Positions 232 to 53,221 of a DNA stretch of 64,000 nucleotides are shown piece by piece. Each line of letters starts with the position of its first letter. Position 1 is the first letter of the stretch. Source of the stretch: an uncultured Candidatus Saccharibacteria bacterium (GTDB lineage Bacteria > Patescibacteriota > Minisyncoccia > Phycocordibacterales > Zambryskibacteraceae); the NCBI GenBank assembly GCA_964342515.1, contig CAYFFP010000001.1, positions 78,204-142,203 of the forward strand. The letters are read 5' to 3'. The translations under genes were made by a program, and so were the position numbers. The notes beneath the pieces were generated by a model. That model was given only the letters and a program-made list of their open reading frames with translations. It was not told the origin of the DNA and made no database searches.

Positions 232-724
232 TTCCTAAACAAAAAGCTAGCCGGTAATAAGCTAGCGCAGATACACTGAACCCCACGCTAGCTTGCAGGC
301 CTTACGGCCCATTAACCGTTTCCAGTTAATGCTCATGGAAGAGTCGCTGAACGTGGGGTTCAGTATCTTCCATGAGTCTTGAGAACCATGCCGGCAGTCA
401 ATGCTGTCGGTTTAGGCCCTGCCCTTACGGGCTATTCAGTTGTAGAAACATCCTAATAATACGCACTGAAAAGAACTTCGCAACACACCCCTTTCCCAAA
501 AAATCTGGCGCAACTTTTTAACAGGCCTAAAATCTAAAATCAGAATTTGTTCAATTTAGGTCTCGCGGAACCGTGTTCGTACGTCTCCTCCACGCTGCCC
601 GCCGTATTCAGTACCTAGATCGATCCACCCCCCGTGCCCTTATCAGAAATACTCAATAACAGACTTAAAAACTACAGAAGTGAGGTTAAGTCATTAATAG
701 TCAAACCTCGTGCGCATGTAGTGA

Positions 725-2465: not shown

Positions 2466-2539
2466 GCCTTTGTAGCTCAATGGTAGAGCAGCGGAGTGAA
2501 GTCCCGAAGACGGAAGTCCAATTCTTCCCAAAGGCACAA
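2466..2539 (+). tRNA. tRNA-like gene, possibly tRNA-Phe(GAA), with a weak anticodon stem (possible pseudogene)
   Basis: Acceptor GCCTTTG/CAAAGGC. D-arm GCTC-AATGGTA-GAGC. T-arm GGAAG-TCCAATT-CTTCC. Candidate loop GTGAAGT gives anticodon GAA, but the stem has only 3 Watson-Crick pairs and the T-loop has C55. No encoded CCA. Confidence 0.35.
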
Positions 2540-4482: not shown

Positions 4483-7400
4483 ATGACTACCTCGACAAAA
4501 AAGCCCACAGACACACCTATTGATCCAAAGATCAAAACAATAAGAGATTACCAGGAAAAAGTGGTAGATCTTTCTCGACGAAACCGTCTCCTGAAGTATC
4601 CTTTGAAGGCTCGCCGAATCTCATTTGATCTGAGTCTGCAAGATTTCCATGAGAATTATGGAATGTCTGAAGATTTTAGTATGGAATTTCTTCACAAACT
4701 TGTTCTTGCACAAGATGAGGATGGAAGTCAATTGCCACTATTTCACAATAAAAGGGGCAGAAAAAATGAAAATCAGAAATTCACTCCAATTACGACCCCT
4801 AAAGGAGAGAAGCTACTCAATGCTTTTATATCGCTTAGACTGGATGCCAAAAGAAAATTTGAAGAACATGGCTTAAATACTCTTTTTCTGACAATTGGAA
4901 AGATAAAGTGGAAAGAAAAACAAACAGGGAGAGGTTCTTCCGATGCGAGTGATGAATGGGATTATAATGCCCCATTACTCCTGATTCCTATAAAGATAGA
5001 GGACTACAGACAGCCGATAAAAAAGACGGTAATAAGGCAGGACTTTGAGAGCGGAGAGATTAGCGTTAATCCGATTTTGAGATTATTCCTAGAACGGCAA
5101 TACGGCATTGTAATTCCTGACCTGGAAATTCCGGAAGAAGTTGAAAATATCTCCATCCTCGTTAACAAGTTTGTAACAAAGTTTAAAAAGGCTTTTTCTG
5201 ATTCAAAAATTAAACACAATATCGATTTAGATATAGAGATTGGACAGTACTCATTCTACGGACAACAGATTTACGAGGATTTAAGGGATAACGAGGAGGA
5301 AATAGCAGACAATCCTTTCATTACTTCTTTATGTGAAAAGGCTTCCTTAACTCAAAAAAACTTTTCTGATGTTGAACCTAACCCCGAAAGACTTCTGGAT
5401 CCGGAGGAAGACTTCAGCATACTGGATGCCGACGTTAGTCAATTAGAAGTAATCCAGAAGGTCATATGGGGCCAGAGCATGGTTGTTCAAGGTCCACCGG
5501 GTACCGGCAAAAGCCAGACTATCGTAAATCTTGTTTCTAATCTGCTTGCTAGAGGTAAGAGCGTATTAGTAGTCTGCGAAAAACATGTTGCTTTGGAGGT
5601 TGTCTTGAAAAGATTAAAAGATGCCGGTCTGGACAAGCTCTGCTTACCCCTATTTCAATTCAGTACAGACAAAAGCCGTTTCGCTAAAAGTATAATCGAA
5701 GATAGAAATTACATCATTAAAAATTTCTCTTCAGAAAATAGAGCACTTCACTCTTCTTTGGAACTTAGACAAAAGAGTATAAATAAATTGAAAGATTATG
5801 CAAAAACTCTTTCAAAAATAATTGAACCATTGGGCAGAAATGTATTCTGGGTACATGGAGAATTATCTCGGATGCAGTCGATTAATTCTGACGACCCTAT
5901 CTTATGGAAGGGAAATGATCTACAGGCCATCACTTTTCCAGAATATCAAGAGTTAATTACTCTTACCGCCAATATAGCTCCGATATTAAAGAAAAAGGAA
6001 GAAAATGCAGTTGATTACTGGCAGTCAATAAAGAAAGAGCATTTCTCTCCCGACTACGCAACGCGAGTATTTCAGGCTCTGTCTGACGCTAAAAGAAATC
6101 TTAGTTCTTTAATAAAGATTAAGCCTGATTTGCTACCAATCCATTCCGTCTCCGATATTAAAAAAGCAGTAGAACTCAAGGAAAAAATAACTTCAATTTT
6201 ACCTCTAGATTTGCATAACTTGGGAATCAGAACTGACACTTCCATAGAAGATGTGATTACTGGGTTAAAAAAGCTAAATAAGATGTTGTCATTGTATGAA
6301 AAGACAAACTCTTCCTTAGCAAAGAAATACCTTGTACCGGAATCATGGTATTTACCAAACCAAAGTCATTTTGACGGCTTGAATGACAATGTCCTAATTG
6401 TTGATATTGAGAAGGCGGAAATAGAACTGAAAGCAACTGAGGACTCCTTAAAATTTACTAAGAAATTCCTATCTCAAAATAAGGCAGATTACTTAATTGC
6501 TCTACCGATCAATGAACTTTCGAAATATATTCCACTTTTCGAGCTAGATTCCGTCTTAAAGAAGCTTAGTTCATGGAATAACATTGGCTCACTTAAGTCT
6601 GCTGCTGAATCGATAGGGGTACTCTATGCGATTTATCAAAAATTGGAATCGGCTAAGCTCGAGTTTGAAAAGAGAGCCATTACTTTCGCTGATCTCAATG
6701 AATCAGAGGCCCTGGTGATCGCCGACAGATTTCAAGAGAAATATAAGTATTTTTTTAGATTTATTTTCCCTCAATACAAAAAGGATTGCATGGTAATTGC
6801 TTCATGGTGCGGAGTTGAAGTGCCGGTGAAATTCGCTGATTTCAATAAGATTGTCTTAAGTGTTCAAGATTGTTTTAGGCTTACCACGAAGTTTAAAGCT
6901 CTTTTGTCGCAGTTTAATCAGAAATGGACTCAAAAGAAAGATGGAGTTGGGTATGCTTCAATTCCAGGGTTGCATACGAATTTATCTAGATTGATCGATT
7001 GGCTCACTCTTGAAGGTAAGGAAGAACTGCCTCCTCAATTATTCAAATTTATTGAAACTAATCTAGATAATGAAGATCTGAAGACCTTGCCGTTAAGTCT
7101 GAATTCAATAAGCAAACTGTTGAACAATTTTTTAAAGGTTTTCAACTTAAATGATTCCCTATCCTTTAACGAGATTGAAAGTAAAAGAAGATCTTTGGAT
7201 AATCAAATAAAGAATATTATTCAGAACTACAGAAATGTCGTCGAGATTCTCCCAGAAAACCAACCAAAAACAGTCGACGAGATGAAGAGTGATATAGCTG
7301 CGATAAATCAACTGGCGGATGTCTTGAAAACAGTATCGAAAAAAGAACTGGATGACTTATTTCACCCAGAAACTAGCCTAAGGGAAATTGTCGGTCTCTC

Positions 7401-12581: not shown

Positions 12582-12654
12582 GGGCCCTTAGCTTAGTTGG
12601 TAGAGCGCCGCATTTGCAATGCGGAGGTCGGGAGTTCGAATCTCCCAGGGTCCA
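12582..12654 (+). tRNA. tRNA-Ala(TGC)
   Basis: Acceptor GGGCCCT/AGGGTCC with G3:U70. D-arm GCTT-AGTTGGTAG-AGCG. Anticodon arm CCGCA-TTTGCAA-TGCGG. T-arm GGGAG-TTCGAAT-CTCCC. Discriminator A, then CC. Confidence 0.85.
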
Positions 12655-12661
12655 CCGTTTT

Positions 12662-13105
12662 ATGGAAAGAGAAAAATGGCATGTAGAAAAGTTACCTGCT
12701 GGGTATCCTACTCAATGTAGTAATGAAGATCTTAGTAATGCCTTGCAAGACTTAATAGACGAGTATCGCCAAAAAAAACTTGGCGGTAAGAATAATAAAA
12801 TATGGGAAGATATAATCTCTCAACTCATTAAGCAAGGTCGTGATGAAATGTCTAGTAGAATAGAGAAACACGGTCCAATCACTATAACCTATGCTGGCGG
12901 AGAAGGCGGTAAGGGAGGGCTTTGGAGCGGTGGAGGTGGTGGTGGAGGTGCAGGACCTGGTGGTGGCAGAGGTGGAGATGGGGGTTCAGTTGTCGTAATG
13001 CCACCAAAAACATCTGGGGTATGGAAATGGATTTTTGATCACGTTTTTCAGATTATTGTGGCAGTAATCGTAGCGGCTATAGTTTACTGGCTTGGCTGGA
13101 GTTAA
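12662..13105 (+). CDS. Hypothetical Gly-rich protein with C-terminal TM helix
   Basis: ORF 12614..13105 trimmed to the first ATG downstream of the tRNA. It contains a GGEGGKGGLWSGGGGGGGAGPGGGRGGDGG low-complexity tract. Confidence 0.35.
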   Translation: MEREKWHVEKLPAGYPTQCSNEDLSNALQDLIDEYRQKKLGGKNNKIWEDIISQLIKQGRDEMSSRIEKHGPITITYAGGEGGKGGLWSGGGGGGGAGPGGGRGGDGGSVVVMPPKTSGVWKWIFDHVFQIIVAVIVAAIVYWLGWS

Positions 13106-13423: not shown

Positions 13424-14323
13424 CTAAATAACCAAGTCATTCAGTGGGTGTTTGTTCATTTGCAACCTCAAATGCTCTGCGCTGGCAGAAAGGTAAATTG
13501 TGGTTGTCTTGATGTCACTGTGTCCCATTAGTCTAGAGAGGGAGAATATATCACAGCCACCAGTTAGCATTAATGTAGCATAAGTATGCCTTAGCTTATG
13601 AATTGTAAAATTGATTTTGGAAGTTTCTTTTATTTTTCTTACTAGATTTCTGAGTCCCATGTCTGTAAATCCACAATTCCGGTTGAGCGATGCAAAAAAT
13701 TCTGGACAAGTCTTATTGAGTCGTTTTCGCTCGTCCAAATAGCGTTTTAGGCTCTGGGCCAACGCGCTACACATTGGTATTATTCGATCCTTGCCACCTT
13801 TGCCTTGGTTGACGAATATGCTCAGATTTTCCACGTCTACATCGGTGTATTTCAATTTCAAAAGCTCTTTCTTTCGCAAGCCGGAGAAAAGGAAGGTTGA
13901 AAATATGGCGTGATTTCTATATCTCAAAAATTTGTAGTCGTAGGGGTAGTTATAAACAACCTCAACGAGCTTGAGAGCATCTTGTTTGGTTAGGCAGGAT
14001 GGCAGACGTTTTTCCACCTTGGGTATTTCCAGATCATCAGCTGGATTCTTTGTCAGATATTTTTCACTCACGCACCACTTAAAAAATACCGTCAGAGAAT
14101 GGTAGAAACAAATAAATGAGTTAGGTTTCCAGTTGCGTTTGGTCCTGCCGTTGAAAAAGAATTGTCGGACATTTTCTTCCGTCACTTGTTCTATTTCCGA
14201 AACTTCTGCCAACCTCGAGTACAAGTTGATCGCTTGTCTATATCGTCGAATCGTTGCTGGTCTGTAGCCACGCATATACAACGAATAATCGTAAAACTTC
14301 TGAGCCAATATTTGTATATTCAT
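13424..14323 (-). CDS. Tyrosine site-specific recombinase/integrase (phage-integrase family)
   Basis: C-terminal block HKLRHTYATLMLTGGCDIFSLSRLMGHSDIKTTTIYL carries the His/Arg/Tyr catalytic motifs. It lies adjacent to tRNA-Ala genes and a truncated tRNA copy. Confidence 0.85.
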   Translation of the reverse strand: MNIQILAQKFYDYSLYMRGYRPATIRRYRQAINLYSRLAEVSEIEQVTEENVRQFFFNGRTKRNWKPNSFICFYHSLTVFFKWCVSEKYLTKNPADDLEIPKVEKRLPSCLTKQDALKLVEVVYNYPYDYKFLRYRNHAIFSTFLFSGLRKKELLKLKYTDVDVENLSIFVNQGKGGKDRIIPMCSALAQSLKRYLDERKRLNKTCPEFFASLNRNCGFTDMGLRNLVRKIKETSKINFTIHKLRHTYATLMLTGGCDIFSLSRLMGHSDIKTTTIYLSASAEHLRLQMNKHPLNDLVI

Positions 14324-14498
14324 AATAATAACAACCTATCGCTGTTATTATTTCAAGAGAACCATTGGTGAAAACTGAATCAAAAACGGTATAAGTTTGA
14401 TGAGCCGATGACCTGTTTAGTGAATGAATAGGTCATCTAACCCCTTTAAAAACAATTTTATCCTTATTTAGAGAGATATTTGATCAATGGAGGGTAGA

Positions 14499-14543
14499 CC
14501 TATTTATTGCAAATGAGGCGCTCTACCGACTAAGCTACGGGCC
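14499..14543 (-). pseudogene. Truncated 5' portion (through anticodon loop) of a tRNA-Ala(TGC) copy, inverted relative to the intact gene; likely att-site or rearrangement remnant
   Basis: The minus strand reads GGGCCCGTAGCTTAGTCGGTAGAGCGCCTCATTTGCAAT and then diverges (AAATAGG...). It is about 36/39 identical to 12582-12620 of the intact tRNA. No T-arm or 3' acceptor follows. Confidence 0.5.
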
Positions 14544-14630
14544 CGGGAGCAAAATCTTCAATTTTCAATTTTGCAATTTTCAAATAATACTCGACAAAAT
14601 GGCTAAAATCAAGCAAAATATCGGTCCAAA

Positions 14631-15702: not shown

Positions 15703-16521
15703 TTGAAGCTGACAGTTTCCCTGATTGTTTTAATAGCGGTTTTTTCTGTCTGGAATTCCTTCAGAGCGGGAAGCTCTCCCGCGCCGTGCGCCGAGCCGAT
15801 CGCGTACGGCGTCGGAGAGTTCGACCGCCGTTTCGACTTGTCGCAGAAAGATTTTCTAGCGGCGCTCGCCGAAGCAGAAATAATTTGGGAGAAGCCAATA
15901 AACAAAGATTTGTTCTCCTATTCTCCAGAAAAAGGCGAACTTGCGATTAATCTCATTTATGATTACCGCCAACAAGTGACGGAAGAGCTGGGAGAAATAC
16001 AGGGCGAGGTGAAGGAAGATGAAGTCACTTACAGGATACTCGAAGCGAATTACCTTGGGGCCAAAGCCAGACACGACGAGCTGAAAGGTATTTATCAGGC
16101 CCGGGTTTCGGAGTTAGAGGCCAGACAACCGATTCCCCGCGAAGAATATCAACAACTGAAAATACTTGAATCGGAGTTTAACGCGGCGGTGCGCGACGTC
16201 AACGTTCTGGTTGATAAGCTTAACAGATTAGCGAGAGTGCTCAATCTTACGGTTGAGCAATACAACACTATCGGCGCTTCCCGCGGAGAAACTTTCGCCG
16301 GCGGGCTCTACACCAGCGATGCCAGCGGCGAACGGATTGATATATTTGAATTTTCCAATCACGACAAACTGGTAAGAGTGCTCGCCCACGAACTAGGACA
16401 CACGCTCGGTCTAGACCATGTCGATGACCCGCAAGCCATCATGTATAAGCTCAACGAAGGGGAGGTGGCTAAGGCCAATGTTACCGACATTTTCGCGCTC
16501 AAGGCGCTTTGCGGTATTTAA
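15703..16521 (+). CDS. Matrixin-like zinc metalloprotease (secreted)
   Basis: Signal/TM N-terminus. VLAHELGHTLGLDHVDDPQAIMY is the HExxHxxGxxH plus Met-turn signature of metzincins/matrixins. Confidence 0.75.
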   Translation: MKLTVSLIVLIAVFSVWNSFRAGSSPAPCAEPIAYGVGEFDRRFDLSQKDFLAALAEAEIIWEKPINKDLFSYSPEKGELAINLIYDYRQQVTEELGEIQGEVKEDEVTYRILEANYLGAKARHDELKGIYQARVSELEARQPIPREEYQQLKILESEFNAAVRDVNVLVDKLNRLARVLNLTVEQYNTIGASRGETFAGGLYTSDASGERIDIFEFSNHDKLVRVLAHELGHTLGLDHVDDPQAIMYKLNEGEVAKANVTDIFALKALCGI

Positions 16522-16588
16522 TTTTTATCGGCTAATTCGCACGAATAAGAGAATAGATCCAACGGCTCAATCGGTTGAGCCGTTGGAT
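16520..16588 (+). repeat. Copy A of 69-nt dispersed repeat (palindrome ATTCGCACGAAT + hairpin AACGGCTCAA-CGGTTGAGCCGTT)
   Basis: aatttttatcggctaattcgcacgaataagagaata...aacggctcaatcggttgagccgttggat is nearly identical to 17115-17183. Core copies also occur at 52806-52835 and 53131-53151. Confidence 0.8.
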
Positions 16589-16727
16589 TGAGATAGCAAA
16601 ACACCAGCTTTCGCTGGTGTTTTGCTTCCTAAGTGCTTGCGGGCTCCAATACCAGCACTAGGCTCGGTATGTGTATAGAGTATCATAGGTAGCTATTTCT
16701 TACAAGTGTCTTGTGGATATCTTTTAA

Positions 16728-16794
16728 GCCCGCAGAGGGATTCGAACCCTCGGCACTTAGGTTACCGAGCCTAGTGCCAGACCGACTTGCGGGC
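16728..16794 (-). other. tRNA-like remnant (good acceptor and T-arm, defective D/anticodon arms)
   Basis: The minus strand gives GCCCGCA...GAGGG-TTCGAAT-CCCTC-TGCGGGC, a perfect acceptor and T-arm in 67 nt. No canonical D-stem, and only a 4-bp stem with an 8-nt loop for the anticodon arm. Confidence 0.25.
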
Positions 16795-16871
16795 CGGTAT
16801 AATTCTAGCACCTGTTTGCAATTAACCCTGATTTAAGTAAACTCGTTTCAGAACAAGATTGGAGGTTTCCG

Positions 16872-17063
16872 ATGGGTTGCGAATACCTGCTCGTCTATGG
16901 TGAAGGGCTCTCGCGAGACCGGAACCATTTCCAGTTCCACGCTGCAACTCTTGGAGATGCCGAGAAAAACGCTGAAGAAGTCATCAGGATACGGAAGCAG
17001 CAAGCGCGCAAACCAGAAAGGTTCAGCGCCACCCTTTATCGTCAAATGAAAGAATGGCGATAA
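16872..17063 (+). CDS. Small hypothetical protein
   Basis: 63 aa, preceded by TATAAT (16797-16803) and GGAGG RBS. Lies between repeat copies A and B. Confidence 0.3.
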   Translation: MGCEYLLVYGEGLSRDRNHFQFHAATLGDAEKNAEEVIRIRKQQARKPERFSATLYRQMKEWR

Positions 17064-17114
17064 ACAAACCGCCCGCCAGAGGAAGCCGTCGCGCTTTCCA
17101 AGCGAGGCGGTTTC

Positions 17115-17183
17115 AATTTTTATCGGCTAATTCGCACGAATAAGAGAATAGGTTTAACGGCTCAACCGGTTGAGCCGTTGGAT
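17115..17183 (+). repeat. Copy B of 69-nt dispersed repeat
   Basis: See copy A; about 63/69 identical. Confidence 0.8.
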
Positions 17184-17265
17184 ACACTTATATTTGCGAC
17201 CGTAAGAATATGTGTATAAAATTTTCAGCTAGCACCTAGTCGCTAGAACTTGTATACTATTTTTC

Positions 17266-18071: not shown

Positions 18072-18814
18072 CAAAACTCTCAATTTTTATCGCTCTGAGT
18101 TTTGTTTTAACCACGCCGGCATATGCGGACTCTCTCTTCTCCGACGGGTTCGAGTCGGATACGGAATTTTCCGGCTGGTCGCAGAATGTCCTGACCGAAT
18201 GGGATGTCATAAATAATTCCGCCGGCGCTCATGGCGGTTCAAAGCGCGCGCAAGTAAACGGCACTACTACAGGACAAACCTACGCCATCATTAGGGAACA
18301 ATCTACGTCTGATTATGAAAATATTTCTCTTTCGTTCTGGTACAAAATCAATAATGGCCTCGAATCAGATGATCATGTTCTGGCTGAATGGTCTCTAAAT
18401 GGATCAAGCTGGACTACGGTAGAGGATTTAACTAATGCTTCAACAACCTCCGGCTACACGCAAAGTATTTCGAATCTTTCGTCAGGAGCAAACGACCAAT
18501 CCGGATTCCGCTTCCGGTTCTTTGCAAACTTGGGAGCCTCAAGCGACGTGGTAAGCATTGATGATGTCGAGTTAAGCGGAACCGTGATTGCGGTCGCTAC
18601 GCCGGTGGTTGAAGAATCAAGCGGCCCGGTCGGCAGCTCCCGTCCGCCAACGCCCTCACCCCAAATTGGCGAGATTCTCGGCGCCTCGACCTCCGTTTTT
18701 ATTGAGAGGGAAGCGGCGATAAAAGACGCCGAGGCGGAACTTATCAAAATCATGGAGAATTTTATAATCCTCCTCCAATCCGAAATCGCCTCTTATCCTG
18801 CTTCGCATGTCTAA
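18068..18814 (+). CDS. Secreted hypothetical protein (signal peptide)
   Basis: MTKLSIFIALSFVLTTPAYA is signal-like. Ser/Thr-rich with a Pro-rich C-terminus. Confidence 0.45.
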   Translation: MTKLSIFIALSFVLTTPAYADSLFSDGFESDTEFSGWSQNVLTEWDVINNSAGAHGGSKRAQVNGTTTGQTYAIIREQSTSDYENISLSFWYKINNGLESDDHVLAEWSLNGSSWTTVEDLTNASTTSGYTQSISNLSSGANDQSGFRFRFFANLGASSDVVSIDDVELSGTVIAVATPVVEESSGPVGSSRPPTPSPQIGEILGASTSVFIEREAAIKDAEAELIKIMENFIILLQSEIASYPASHV

Positions 18815-18934
18815 GCTTTCTGTAGGCATGGTCTGAACACAATGCAACATGCTGTGCCATTCTTCTTTACGATAAAACTTCCTAAACCTCAAAAATTATT
18901 TGGGAATAGATAGTCAATAACTTAGCTTTTCCTC

Positions 18935-20356: not shown

Positions 20357-21088
20357 TTATTGGCACCACTTAGCCGTTCTTGTGAGAATAATGGGGAATC
20401 CGCTTACTTGGCGACCATTATCGGCCTTCCATTCTTGAATTGTCACACTGAATGTTCCAGGCTCTGTTATGTCCTGGGCACGGGCAAAAATGTAACTATG
20501 CAATCTACCCCCATCGGTCTGTATTCTCTCATTGAATTGATTAACAGTTACTAGATGGGAGTAAGAAGAAACTAAGATGTAAGGTGAACCACTTTCCCAA
20601 CGGGCAGTGAGCTTACCATCATCGTATTGTGTAGTGCCTGTGGCAGTAAGCCCAACTACGTTAATCTGACCGATAAGGAAATCATATTCATTACTCTGGC
20701 TACCATGCCCTTGTCCTGGAATCATGCAGTAATCAGATAATGGAGCTTGTGCCAAAAAAGTAAGTGGGGTTGGTGGTGGAGGTGGAGGCAGAGGTGGTGG
20801 CACCACTACTGGAATTGGCGTGGTGTTAGTTATTACAGTATCTACCTTCTGGCTCACGGCTCCCAATTGCGTAGCTTGAGTAGCTTGCTGGGCTATGAGT
20901 TCGGCAATCTGTGTCTGTAACTCCGCTATCCTCGCTAGAAGAATCTGAATTGTAAGGTCTTGGATTTGCTGGTTGATAGCTCGGATTTGTTCTTGCTGTT
21001 CAGCAGAAAATGTCTGGGCCCTCACAACAAAGGATGGTGTAATAAATAAACTCAGAACAACCAATGTTGATATTAAACTTTTTTTCAT
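20357..21088 (-). CDS. Secreted protein with coiled-coil, poly-Pro linker and C-terminal beta-rich domain
   Basis: Signal peptide, Gln/Ala-rich coiled coil, PPPLPPPPPPTPL. Confidence 0.45.
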   Translation of the reverse strand: MKKSLISTLVVLSLFITPSFVVRAQTFSAEQQEQIRAINQQIQDLTIQILLARIAELQTQIAELIAQQATQATQLGAVSQKVDTVITNTTPIPVVVPPPLPPPPPPTPLTFLAQAPLSDYCMIPGQGHGSQSNEYDFLIGQINVVGLTATGTTQYDDGKLTARWESGSPYILVSSYSHLVTVNQFNERIQTDGGRLHSYIFARAQDITEPGTFSVTIQEWKADNGRQVSGFPIILTRTAKWCQ

Positions 21089-21351
21089 ATCTATATCTAT
21101 CTTTATTTATAAACAGAAAGCCCACCACGGGCGGTAGCTAAGCTACCCACTGCCAGTTTCCCGACAGGACCGATGAAGGTATTCCCATGATGGGTTTTCC
21201 ATCCTTCATCGGTTTTAACCATGCTTAGCCCTTAAAAGAGCTAGGTTTAGGTTATTAAACTACATAGTCAGAGTAGCACTTTTACCCTAGAAAAATCAAC
21301 TAGGAAGTGGTATAACGTTCACGAAGTTCACTCATTCATATAGAGATAAAA

Positions 21352-49131: not shown

Positions 49132-49178
49132 CCTCACACAAAATAAGAAAGCTATAGCTTTCTTATTTTGTGTGAGAA
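49132..49178. terminator. Perfect 19-bp inverted repeat hairpin after dnaJ (terminator-like)
   Basis: cctcacacaaaataagaaagc-tata-gctttcttattttgtgtgagaagg. Confidence 0.45.
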
Positions 49179-52778: not shown

Positions 52779-52805
52779 TATATTTAATCTACATTATAAT
52801 TTATC

Positions 52806-52835
52806 TATCGGCTAATTCGCACGAATAAGAGAATA
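52806..52835 (+). repeat. Core copy C of dispersed repeat (TATCGGCTAATTCGCACGAATAAGAGAATA) upstream of ArsR-like gene
   Basis: Identical 30-mer to copies A and B. Confidence 0.75.
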
Positions 52836-52842
52836 AAAATAT

Positions 52843-53109
52843 ATGAATAGTAAAAATTTAGAAAAAATACTTAAGGCGGTAGCCAACAAGCGCCGATTGG
52901 CAATTCTCGATTATTTATCTAAAGAAAAAATAGTGAATGTAGGCGGCATCGCCGAACATATCAATTTATCTTTTAAATCTACCTCCAGACATCTTGCGGT
53001 TTTTAGAGCCACTGATATTGTCGATAGGGAGCAGATAGGGTTAGAAAATTTTTATAGCATTTCGAAAGACATGCCGGAAGTAGTCAAACAAATCATGCAC
53101 TATCTCTAA
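52843..53109 (+). CDS. ArsR/SmtB-family winged-helix transcriptional regulator
   Basis: LKAVANKRRLAILDYL...VGGIAEHINLSFKSTSRHLAVF is the ArsR HTH. Confidence 0.7.
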   Translation: MNSKNLEKILKAVANKRRLAILDYLSKEKIVNVGGIAEHINLSFKSTSRHLAVFRATDIVDREQIGLENFYSISKDMPEVVKQIMHYL

Positions 53110-53130
53110 TCTTCTTATCTATATGGACAT

Positions 53131-53151
53131 ATTCGTGCGAATAAGAGAATA
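53131..53151 (-). repeat. Core copy D of dispersed repeat (inverted palindrome variant ATTCGTGCGAATAAGAGAATA) downstream of ArsR-like gene
   Basis: Matches the repeat core with the palindrome centre CA>TG. Confidence 0.6.
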
Positions 53152-53221
53152 AGGGGGATGGTAGTTAATAGGATGTGAGATGAAACTTTAAAAAGCCTTT
53201 AAAATTGGTATGATATTGAAT

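What the first reader, a model, noticed from the sequence alone, without database searches (positions are those of the whole stretch)
16520..17183. 69-nt dispersed repeat with two palindromes; also brackets an ArsR-like regulator gene (candidate operator/regulon or MITE)
Two near-identical 69-nt units (16520-16588 and 17115-17183) contain the palindrome ATTCGCACGAAT and the hairpin AACGGCTCAAYCGGTTGAGCCGTT. They bracket a 0.5-kb segment holding a degenerate tRNA-like remnant (16728-16794) and a 63-aa ORF. The 30-nt core recurs immediately upstream (52806-52835) and, inverted, downstream (53131-53151) of an ArsR/SmtB-family repressor gene. The 12-bp palindrome is a plausible operator for that repressor. 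That would link the matrixin/flavodoxin-like/secreted-protein locus at 15.7-18.8 kb to an ArsR regulon. Alternatively this is a miniature inverted-repeat element family.
Basis: seen in the sequence. Interest (0 to 1): 0.5.

Follow-up and report, generated by a model that had tools for sequence, protein, structure and literature searches.

The report
Binding site of a small regulator
The repeated 30-base core is a copy of a near-palindromic DNA site that flanks, on both sides, the gene of a small ArsR-type DNA-binding protein in many Patescibacteria (CPR) lineages; it is most likely that protein's binding site, and I found no description of it in the searched literature.

Summary
The repeats are real. 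A 72-78-nt unit occurs twice (16511-16588 and 17107-17183, 92-93% identical). Its 30-nt core occurs four times in the window: three exact copies and one at 80%. All other positions are at least 9 mismatches from the consensus.

The core belongs to a 14-2-14 quasi-palindrome found across Patescibacteria, TATTCTCT[T/A]ATTCG-YR-CGAAT[A/T]AGAGAATA. Among 106 distinct homologues of the window's 88-aa ArsR-type protein, 93 of 97 have this site upstream and 96 of 102 have one at or just after the stop codon. Upstream sites sit at fixed distances from -10 boxes of mostly leaderless genes. That fits an operator for autorepression.

The proposed regulon link to the matrixin/flavodoxin locus is weak. Positions 16522-17228 are a lineage-specific insertion. 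The 77-aa/flavodoxin genes have their own conserved promoter 115 nt downstream of site 2.

The 69-nt unit is not a MITE. However, a relative carries the same terminator-plus-hairpin module without the 34 nt that hold the site, so the site itself can be a discrete indel.

Two features do not fit a simple operator. Sites lie in-frame inside housekeeping genes at positions conserved between orthologues. Perfect palindromes also lie between convergent gene ends.

The parts
16526..16555 (+). Site 1: TATCGGCTAATTCGCACGAATAAGAGAATA, starting 5 nt after the matrixin stop codon
   Evidence: Exact copy. It is 4 mismatches from the clade consensus, while the window background is at 9 or more.
17121..17150 (+). 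Site 2: identical 30-mer. It lies after the terminator of the 63-aa gene and 115 nt upstream of the 77-aa gene's own -10 box.
   Evidence: The relative L211 has the same terminator-plus-hairpin module without these 34 nt.
52806..52835 (+). Site 3: identical 30-mer ending 8 nt before the ArsR-type start codon. This is the presumed auto-operator. GAGAAT (52829-52834) is a possible -10 box for a leaderless mRNA, and TATAAT at 52795-52800 is an alternative -10.
   Evidence: An identical site lies upstream of the 76%-identical homologue in L200.
53122..53151 (+). Site 4: TATGGACATATTCGTGCGAATAAGAGAATA, 12 nt after the ArsR-type stop codon and about 73 nt upstream of the trpS -10 box (53209-53214)
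   Evidence: D2, 80%. A site at or just after the stop codon occurs in 96 of 102 homologues.
52843..53109 (+). 88-aa ArsR/SmtB-type winged-helix protein with no cysteine. It is the presumed binder of the sites.
   Evidence: Pfam HTH_5 scores 29.6 bits against a cut-off of 22. NCBIfam NF033788 scores 57.2 against 55. The nearest solved structures are NolR, HlyU and PagR. The family alignment is A1.
16511..16588 (+). Repeat unit 1: last bases of matrixin, then the site, then the hairpin
17107..17183 (+). Repeat unit 2: end of a terminator, then the site, then the hairpin
16557..16588 (+). Hairpin ATCCAACGGCTCAATCGGTTGAGCCGTTGGAT, with a second copy at 17152-17183. It is an older element found without the site in L211.
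16594..16624 (.). Terminator-like hairpin GCAAAACACCAGC-TTTC-GCTGGTGTTTTGC, followed by TTTTGC-type tails on both strands
   Evidence: Folds; read from the sequence
16727..16794 (-). Degenerate tRNA-like remnant. The acceptor stem and T arm are intact, while the D arm and anticodon arm are defective.
16629..16665 (.). Scrambled, partly inverted copy of pieces of the tRNA-like sequence. It can pair with the remnant.
   Evidence: Sequence reading; fold
16872..17063 (+). 63-aa conserved small gene with its own GGAGG ribosome-binding site and an upstream TATAAT (16798-16803)
   Evidence: Homologues are 67-78% identical and sit in other genomic contexts, with no site beside the gene; L205/L206 carry one unrelated site about 650 nt downstream.
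17066..17113 (+). Terminator hairpin after the 63-aa gene, homologous to L211 5309-5356
16522..17228 (.). Block of about 707 nt that is absent between matrixin and the 77-aa gene in the nearest relative, L209
17266..18071 (+). Conserved 77-aa gene plus the Flavodoxin_2 gene. Their own -10 box (TG-TATACT, 17251-17258) lies 7 nt before the ATG, which implies a leaderless mRNA.

Best explanation
The 30-nt core is the DNA-binding site of the 88-aa ArsR/SmtB-type winged-helix protein encoded at 52843-53109.

Shown here:
- The site is a 14-2-14 quasi-palindrome with an invariant centre ATTCG-YR-CGAAT and semi-conserved outer TAT/ATA.
- Many Patescibacteria lineages share it.
- It brackets the regulator's gene on both sides.

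Inferred:
- The upstream copy overlaps or abuts the -10 box of a mostly leaderless gene. Bound protein would then block RNA polymerase, giving autorepression.
- The copy at the stop codon, and the dispersed copies, would act as auxiliary operators or roadblocks. In a minority of cases they would act as operator-plus-(-10) modules for the next gene.

In this window:
- Sites 3 and 4 are the conserved pair around the regulator gene.
- Sites 1 and 2 are exact copies of the upstream operator. They sit in a duplicated 78-nt unit (site plus an older hairpin) at the two ends of a lineage-specific 0.7-kb insertion. That insertion carries a tRNA-like remnant and a small conserved gene.
- Sites 1 and 2 are probably bound by the same protein. 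They are not placed to repress the conserved promoter of the 77-aa/flavodoxin genes.

The protein has no cysteine and no conserved metal-ligand set, so it is not a classical metal sensor. Its signal is unknown.
For: 1. Enrichment. The core ATTCGNNCGAAT occurs 155 times in 271.5 kb of loci chosen by protein homology alone, against 0.4 in shuffles. It occurs 4 times in the window, against 0.59 expected for matches with up to 1 mismatch.
2. Association, tested in both directions. 38 of 115 loci found through the DNA motif hold an ~88-aa homologue next to the site. Of 106 distinct homologues, 93 of 97 have a site within 220 nt upstream and 96 of 102 have one at or after the stop codon.
3. Promoter geometry. 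In 94 upstream sites, -10-like hexamers start at +8 (20 cases), +18/+19 (22) and +28 (9) from the site centre. The start codon usually follows the -10 box by 6-8 nt.
4. Protein conservation. The recognition helix LSFKSTS(K/R)HL is nearly invariant, matching the invariant core.
5. Family. HTH_5 and NF033788 score above their cut-offs. The nearest structures are NolR, HlyU and PagR. To my knowledge, 12-2-12 inverted-repeat operators overlapping the regulator's own promoter are typical of this family.
6. Close relatives (72-76% identical protein) keep the same two sites. L200 has an identical upstream 30-mer.
7. Dispersed sites are mostly intergenic. Gene starts are commoner on the side of a -10-like arm (55 of 154 against 19 of 124).
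Against: - No binding experiment exists. The protein-site link is by association only.
- Many sites are badly placed for promoter control. With a crude gene map, 23 sites lie between convergent gene ends against 6 between divergent starts.
- 27 sites lie inside ORFs of at least 200 aa. Ten of them were scanned with Pfam, and in nine the site falls inside a matched domain; for the L013 aminotransferase the listed best stretch ends before the site. Three of the sites sit at orthologous positions.
- Downstream and dispersed sites lack the +18/+19 peak of -10 boxes.
- Neighbouring genes are functionally diverse.
- Within a site, the variable middle of the two arms is symmetric more often than shuffling predicts: 30 perfect cases against 7.7 expected. 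A simple operator does not require this.
- The half-site cores are only about 7 bp apart (my reading of the consensus). To my knowledge that is unusually close for one ArsR-type dimer.
- In the window, sites 1, 2 and 4 do not overlap any recognisable promoter.
Confidence: 0.68

Rival explanations
1. The site is a miniature mobile or copy-spread palindromic element (REP- or MITE-like) that has proliferated in these genomes. Under this reading the ArsR-type gene is flanked by it the way a RAYT transposase gene is flanked by REPs, and regulation is secondary.
For: - A filled-versus-empty pair: L211 has ...GGCGGTTTCAATTTTT|AACGGCTCAAC... contiguous. Window unit 2 has 34 nt (ATCGGCTAATTCGCACGAATAAGAGAATAGGTTT) at that point, with TTT repeated at both edges.
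- Three copies in the window are 30/30 identical, including an unusual left arm.
- One MAG (KR11_S3.mb.10) has at least 7 perfect 32-bp palindromes.
- Perfect palindromes often extend into variable complementary flanks and lie between convergent genes.
- Arm symmetry exceeds shuffles.
- Sites occur in-frame inside genes, as is reported (from my own knowledge) for Rickettsia palindromic elements.
Against: - The core is invariant across very distant lineages, whereas REP and MITE families are, to my knowledge, species-specific.
- There is a fixed register with -10 boxes and with the regulator's stop codon.
- The flanked gene has no transposase or nuclease domain.
- In YchF the site replaces an equally long stretch rather than adding 10 codons.
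- The indel could equally be a deletion between TTT repeats.
- No copies were found in viral contigs.
Confidence: 0.14
2. The protein-site pair is architectural rather than a promoter switch. It would be a roadblock or termination-boundary system, or a chromosome-organising system comparable to parS/ParB or Ter/RTP. Sites would mark gene ends and some conserved intragenic positions.
For: - Sites sit at the stop codon of the regulator gene in a fixed register (centre at +5 in 28 cases and at -8 in 14).
- Sites lie next to terminators and between convergent genes.
- Intragenic sites are conserved at orthologous positions in dinB, ychF and an aminotransferase, in genes that are only 55-67% identical overall at the DNA level.
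- All four window sites point the same way on the leading-strand side, where cumulative GC skew rises across nearly the whole window.
- From my own knowledge: RTP is also a small winged-helix protein with 30-bp sites next to its own gene.
Against: - Sites are strongly biased to intergenic DNA, unlike parS.
- Many sites are perfect palindromes and so have no polarity.
- The density, about one per 16 kb, is high for Ter sites.
- UP-to-DN spacing shows no helical phasing.
- Nothing here tests termination or chromosome organisation directly.
Confidence: 0.12
3. The palindrome works as an RNA hairpin, for example as a terminator, an mRNA stabiliser, or a structure that hides the ribosome-binding site.
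For: - The element is palindromic.
- Some copies have A-runs and T-runs on their flanks, like bidirectional terminators.
- The purine-rich arm (AGGAGA, AAGAGA) resembles a ribosome-binding site.
Against: - In 189 sites flanking the regulator gene, non-Watson-Crick positions in the arms are mostly not wobble pairs: 479 other, 113 G-U and 86 A-C. Pair 9/22 is unpaired in 57% of sites.
- The window's own copies have non-complementary arms and no T-run.
- No Rfam family matches any of the four sites.
- The regulator genes look leaderless, so the upstream site is mostly not transcribed.
Confidence: 0.05

Closest known systems
ArsR/SmtB-family autorepressors with 12-2-12 inverted-repeat operators (SmtB, CzrA, CadC; non-metal members NolR, HlyU, PagR, SdpR)
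   Same: It is a small winged-helix protein, with HTH_5 and NF033788 above their cut-offs. It has a long inverted-repeat site overlapping its own promoter, and the expected logic is autorepression.
   Different: - No cysteine and no conserved metal-ligand set.
- The site is 14-2-14, with the invariant bases at the centre rather than towards the ends.
- A second site at the stop codon of the gene is nearly universal.
- Copies lie inside housekeeping genes.
- The site sequence is shared by many Patescibacteria lineages.
REP elements with their RAYT gene (REPtrons)
   Same: A gene is flanked on both sides by copies of a short palindrome that is also dispersed in the genome, often at gene ends.
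   Different: The flanked gene encodes a DNA-binding protein, not a Y1 transposase. The palindrome is conserved across very distant lineages. Copy density is low, about one per 16 kb.
Auxiliary-operator systems (lac O1/O2, gal OE/OI) and lambda OR/OL
   Same: There are two operators, one at the promoter and one a few hundred bp downstream, around or inside the regulated unit.
   Different: The 293-468-nt spacing shows no helical phasing. Looping is untested.
Centromere-like or terminus sites next to their binder's gene (parS/ParB, Ter/RTP, TerB/Tus)
   Same: The site is conserved, present in a few tens of copies, adjacent to the binder's gene, and sometimes intragenic.
   Different: The location is mostly intergenic and many sites are fully symmetric. 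There is no evidence on replication or segregation.

Membership tests
ArsR/SmtB transcription factor family | Winged helix-turn-helix of the HTH_5 type | tested here: met
   Pfam HTH_5 has E = 6.3e-07 and 29.6 bits against a cut-off of 22. NF033788 scores 57.2 against 55. PDB NolR has E = 1.8e-07.
ArsR/SmtB transcription factor family | Inverted-repeat operator at the regulator's own promoter | tested here: met
   93 of 97 homologues have the site within 220 nt upstream. -10 boxes sit at fixed offsets of +8, +18/+19 and +28.
ArsR/SmtB transcription factor family | Metal or metalloid ligand residues (alpha3 Cys pair, or alpha5 Asp/His/Glu set) | tested here: not met
   The window protein has no Cys. 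No Cys, and no His/Asp/Glu cluster, is conserved in alignment A1. The invariant residues are N15, R17, R18, V33, S43, T47, S48, H50, Q64 and Y71.
ArsR/SmtB transcription factor family | The protein binds the operator and is released by a signal | not testable with these tools
   This needs EMSA, DAP-seq or ChIP.
MITE | Many dispersed copies of a 50-800-bp non-coding unit with terminal inverted repeats and target-site duplications | tested here: not met
   The 72-78-nt unit has two copies 595 nt apart. The hairpin half occurs only in the window and in L211. The unit has no terminal inverted repeats.
MITE | Filled versus empty sites with a short duplication, applied to the 30-34-nt site alone | tested here: inconclusive
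   There is one pair, window unit 2 against L211, with TTT at both edges. Deletion between the repeats explains it equally well. In YchF the site is not an insertion.
REP/RAYT (REPtron) | Palindromes flank a Y1 (HUH) transposase gene | tested here: not met
   The flanked gene is an HTH_5 protein of 86-93 aa.
Intrinsic terminator | G+C-rich stem followed by a T-run | tested here: not met
   The terminator scan flags none of the four sites on the + strand. The arms in the window are not complementary. Some copies in other genomes do have A/T-run flanks.
tRNA gene (for 16727-16794) | Scores as a tRNA with a complete cloverleaf | tested here: not met
   Rfam scores 27.2 bits, below 29. ARAGORN default and -ps settings find nothing.
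DNA uptake sequence | About one copy per 1-2 kb, throughout coding DNA | tested here: not met
   Density is about one per 16 kb, both in the window and outside the regulator flanks in the unbiased loci (13 sites in 214 kb). Sites are mostly intergenic. A reading-frame bias inside genes does exist (21 of 27).

The most novel reading that the evidence does not exclude
The small ArsR-type protein and its 30-bp palindrome could form a system found across Patescibacteria in which the binding site spreads as a discrete ~30-34-bp unit. This unit would act as a portable operator/-10 module, or as a boundary element. It would be maintained even inside housekeeping genes at conserved positions. That would make the system a protein-partnered, REPtron-like or roadblock-type genome feature, not an ordinary regulon.
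Probability: 0.18. Interest if true: 0.8.

Novelty: new variant of a known kind. Interest (0 to 1): 0.55.

Why it matters
Patescibacteria have tiny genomes and few regulators, and almost nothing is known about how they control transcription. This work yields a regulator-site pair shared by many of their lineages, with a clear and testable site model.

It also suggests that these genes are commonly leaderless, with operators fused to -10 boxes. This gives a direct handle for DAP-seq or EMSA and for reading metatranscriptomes.

The conserved in-frame sites inside polA, dinB, ychF, tatD and other genes, and the sites at gene ends, suggest a role beyond classical promoter repression.

Tried and rejected
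- **Heat-shock repressor idea.** The gene follows grpE-dnaK-dnaJ in Zambryskibacteria, as hspR does in actinobacteria. I rejected the idea because there is no site near grpE/dnaK in the window or in L198-L201.
- **DNA looping with helical phasing.** The Rayleigh test on 94 UP-to-DN distances shows no periodicity at 10-11.5 bp.
- **RNA hairpin.** Mismatches in the arms are mostly non-wobble.
- **Phage or mobile origin.** The motif, the tRNA-like piece and the 63-aa protein give no hits in viral contigs.
- **Similarity of the 0.5-kb segment to other loci.** None was found beyond the ORF and its terminator.
- **Known RNA family.** Rfam finds nothing at the sites. The rsmX-like hit (26.8 bits against a gathering score of 56) only reflects a hairpin-plus-terminator shape.
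- **Literature.** Exact motif strings and searches combining CPR or Patescibacteria with ArsR found no description.
- **Exact look-up of the window's ArsR protein.** It was not on record in the contig index, although an identical NCBI protein exists on a 184.9-kb contig.
- **A coherent regulon function.** The neighbours are diverse: NUDIX, TrpRS/TyrRS, AIR-synthase-like, ABC, PIF1, GH1 and others.
Full report
**1. The observation**

The sequence is as described, with corrections.
- A direct repeat of 72 nt (16517-16588 / 17112-17183, 93% identical) is found by the repeat finder. BLAST extends it to 78 nt.
- The 30-nt core TATCGGCTAATTCGCACGAATAAGAGAATA is exact at 16526, 17121 and 52806.
- A fourth copy at 53122-53151 (TATGGACATATTCGTGCGAATAAGAGAATA) is 80% identical in direct orientation.
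- The 12-mer ATTCGCACGAAT is ATTCG-CA-CGAAT, not a perfect palindrome.
- A scan with the 30-bp consensus derived later finds exactly these four sites, each 4 mismatches away. Everything else in the 64 kb is at 9 or more mismatches.
- The second hairpin occurs only in the two units.
- The tRNA-like sequence on the minus strand scores just under the Rfam threshold, and ARAGORN does not call it by default.
- The ArsR-type gene is 52843-53109.

**2. The core belongs to a site shared by many Patescibacteria lineages**

I scanned one genome per species with ATTCGNNCGAATAAGAGAATA. This gave 115 stretches, nearly all in Patescibacteria MAGs. They include Saccharibacteria and many Parcubacteria lineages, plus a few bins labelled as other phyla.
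- At 44 of the 122 sites the pattern matches on both strands. These sites are full 30-bp palindromes, TATTCTCTTATTCG-NN-CGAATAAGAGAATA.
- The left arm seen in the window, TATCGGCTA, recurs unchanged in several unrelated MAGs.

**3. Association with the ArsR-type gene, tested in both directions**

- Of the 115 motif-selected loci, 38 hold an 86-100-aa homologue. Most have the site just before the start codon or just after the stop codon.
- For an unbiased test I aligned 30 homologues (A1) and fetched 80 metagenome loci by the peptide pattern of the recognition helix alone.
- Almost every one of those loci has the core both upstream of the gene and at its end.
- Over all 106 distinct genes, 93 of 97 have an upstream site and 96 of 102 a downstream one.
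- The stop codon is often part of the site. The site centre is 5 nt after the stop in 28 cases and 8 nt before its end in 14.
- The core occurs 155 times in these 271.5 kb, against 0.4 in shuffles.
- Outside the gene flanks there are 13 good sites in 214 kb, about one per 16 kb. That matches the window's density.

**4. Anatomy of the site**

- Positions 10-14 and 17-21 (ATTCG / CGAAT) are invariant.
- The centre is YR.
- The outer TAT/ATA is about 70% conserved.
- The six bases in the middle of each arm vary between genomes. Examples are AAGAGA, GGTAGA, AGGTAA, TAGCCG, ATGTCC and AAGCCT.
- Within a site the two arm middles are complementary more often than shuffling predicts. There are 30 perfect cases against 7.7 expected, with a maximum of 18 in 1000 shuffles.
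- The non-complementary positions are mostly neither G-U nor A-C, and pair 9/22 is unpaired in 57% of sites. A conserved RNA helix is therefore unlikely.
- The symmetry could come from symmetric protein contacts. It could also come from template-switch correction of quasi-palindromes; that is an inference.

**5. Promoter geometry**

- Relative to the centre of 94 upstream sites, -10-like hexamers start at +8 (20 cases; TAGAAT or GAGAAT inside the right arm, often as TGGTAGAAT). They also start at +18/+19 (22 cases) and at +28 (9 cases).
- The start codon typically follows the -10 box by 6-8 nt. From that spacing I infer that the regulator genes are mostly leaderless and that the site overlaps or abuts the -10 box. 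This is the classical arrangement for autorepression.
- In the window, GAGAAT (52829-52834) lies 8 nt before the ATG. A TATAAT at 52795-52800 is an alternative -10 box.
- Downstream and dispersed sites lack the +18/+19 peak.
- Gene starts are still commoner on the side of a -10-like arm (55 of 154 against 19 of 124). About 13 of them are at leaderless-compatible distance.
- So only a subset of the other sites look like promoter-operator modules.

**6. Features that do not fit a plain operator**

- With a crude gene map, 23 sites lie between convergent gene ends and 6 between divergent starts. Perfect palindromes in AT-rich MAGs often have A-run and T-run flanks and neighbouring terminator hairpins.
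- 27 sites lie inside ORFs of at least 200 aa, and 21 of these are in one reading frame encoding (Y)SLIR(A/T)NKRI.
- I scanned ten of these ORFs with Pfam. They are real genes: PolA, TatD, DinB, two class-V aminotransferases, PPDK, KsgA, MnmA, MiaA and YchF. In nine of the ten the site falls inside a matched domain stretch; for the L013 aminotransferase the listed best stretch ends before the site.
- In three orthologous pairs the site is at the same position and is far better conserved than its flanks. The pairs are dinB, ychF and an aminotransferase, at 55-67% overall DNA identity.
- In YchF the site replaces a stretch of similar length rather than adding ten codons.
- Genes next to sites are diverse.

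**7. The local structure at 16.5-17.3 kb**

- The same sequence appears in an independent ENA assembly. A Logan contig breaks exactly at repeat 2.
- The 77-aa protein is highly conserved, with more than 250 homologues.
- In the nearest relative (L209, 86% identical) the order is VTT-domain gene, DUF5679, matrixin, a 31-nt gap, the 77-aa gene, then flavodoxin. Window positions 16522-17228 are therefore an insertion.
- The 77-aa gene keeps its own -10 box (TG-TATACT, 17251-17258) 7 nt before the ATG. L209, L210 and L211 show equivalent boxes.
- The 63-aa ORF is a real small gene. In relatives it sits elsewhere, without sites, hairpin or tRNA-like sequence beside it.
- L211 carries the same terminator and the same hairpin (AACGGCTCAACTGGTTGAGCCGTT) directly adjacent to each other.
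- Window unit 2 differs from L211 by 34 extra nucleotides holding the site, with TTT at both edges.
- The hairpin is therefore older than the site at this place. The site was gained here or lost in L211 as a discrete piece.
- L209 has a site after its flavodoxin gene (4880-4909). The locus is thus associated with a site in two relatives, but at different positions.

**8. Context of the regulator gene**

- The window has grpE-dnaK-dnaJ-msrA-(200 aa)-SET-histidine kinase-ArsR-trpS-aspS/asnS-scpA.
- Relatives have dnaJ-(NUDIX or PIF1)-ArsR-trpS-aspS, with only the two flanking sites in 12-20 kb. A heat-shock role is therefore not supported.
- By my reading of the sequence, trpS has its own extended -10 box (TGGTATGAT, 53206-53214) about 73 nt downstream of site 4. 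One search reports TATGAT with TG before it at this place.

**9. Comparison with known systems, and novelty**

- The protein passes the sequence tests for ArsR/SmtB but lacks metal-ligand residues.
- The system works like an ArsR-type autorepressor with an inverted-repeat operator.
- It differs in four ways. Its invariant bases lie at the centre of the site. A second site at the stop codon is nearly universal. The site sequence is shared by many Patescibacteria lineages. Copies are conserved inside genes.
- It resembles a REPtron in layout but has no transposase.
- Literature searches found no description.

**10. Verdict**

The regulon link to the matrixin/flavodoxin locus is weak. The 69-nt unit is not a MITE, but the site itself may spread as a small unit.

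Noticed in passing
window 297-418 (-) and 21133-21253 (-): Two LOOT RNA matches score well above the Rfam gathering score: 76.2 and 70.7 bits against 46.4.
   Followed up: no
window 12582-12629 and 14497-14544; 13424-14323 (-): An inverted, 85%-complementary copy of the 5' two-thirds of tRNA-Ala(TGC) lies beside two tRNA-Ala genes and a tyrosine recombinase gene (Phage_integrase). This may be an integration or rearrangement hotspot just upstream of the finding.
   Followed up: partly
window 18807-18836; L209 4918-4947: A 9-codon micro-ORF, MSKLSVGMV, is conserved at the amino-acid level with synonymous changes between the window and a relative. In L209 it starts 8 nt after a site's GAGAAT arm.
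   Followed up: partly
window 17253-17258, 53209-53214, 52829-52834; L209-L211 upstream of the 77-aa gene: -10 boxes sit 6-8 nt before start codons with no ribosome-binding site. This suggests that leaderless mRNAs are common in this lineage.
   Followed up: partly
L004, L008, L009, L011, L013, L035, L047, L067, L080, L100 (coordinates): The 30-bp site lies in-frame inside housekeeping genes (polA, tatD, dinB, ppdK, ksgA, mnmA, miaA, ychF and aminotransferases). It encodes (Y)SLIR(A/T)NKRI, and its position is conserved between orthologues.
   Followed up: yes
window 49133-49176: A perfect 44-bp palindrome, CTCACACAAAATAAGAAAGCTAT|ATAGCTTTCTTATTTTGTGTGAG, lies between dnaJ and msrA.
   Followed up: no
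window 16629-16665 versus 16727-16794: Scrambled, partly inverted pieces of the tRNA-like sequence could pair with it. The fold would keep the T arm between two 9-bp helices.
   Followed up: partly
window 2466-2536: Rfam finds a tRNA here (56.9 bits) that ARAGORN did not list.
   Followed up: no
L036, L053, L108, L131, L160, L162 (sites listed): Half-sites such as TCTCTAATTCGCGCG are followed by a G+C-rich hairpin (CCTGCC...GGCAGG) instead of the second arm. This may be a second element class joined to the core.
   Followed up: no
window 12930-12998 and 20764-20814: GGT-rich repeats are shared between two genes. They probably encode glycine-rich protein segments.
   Followed up: no
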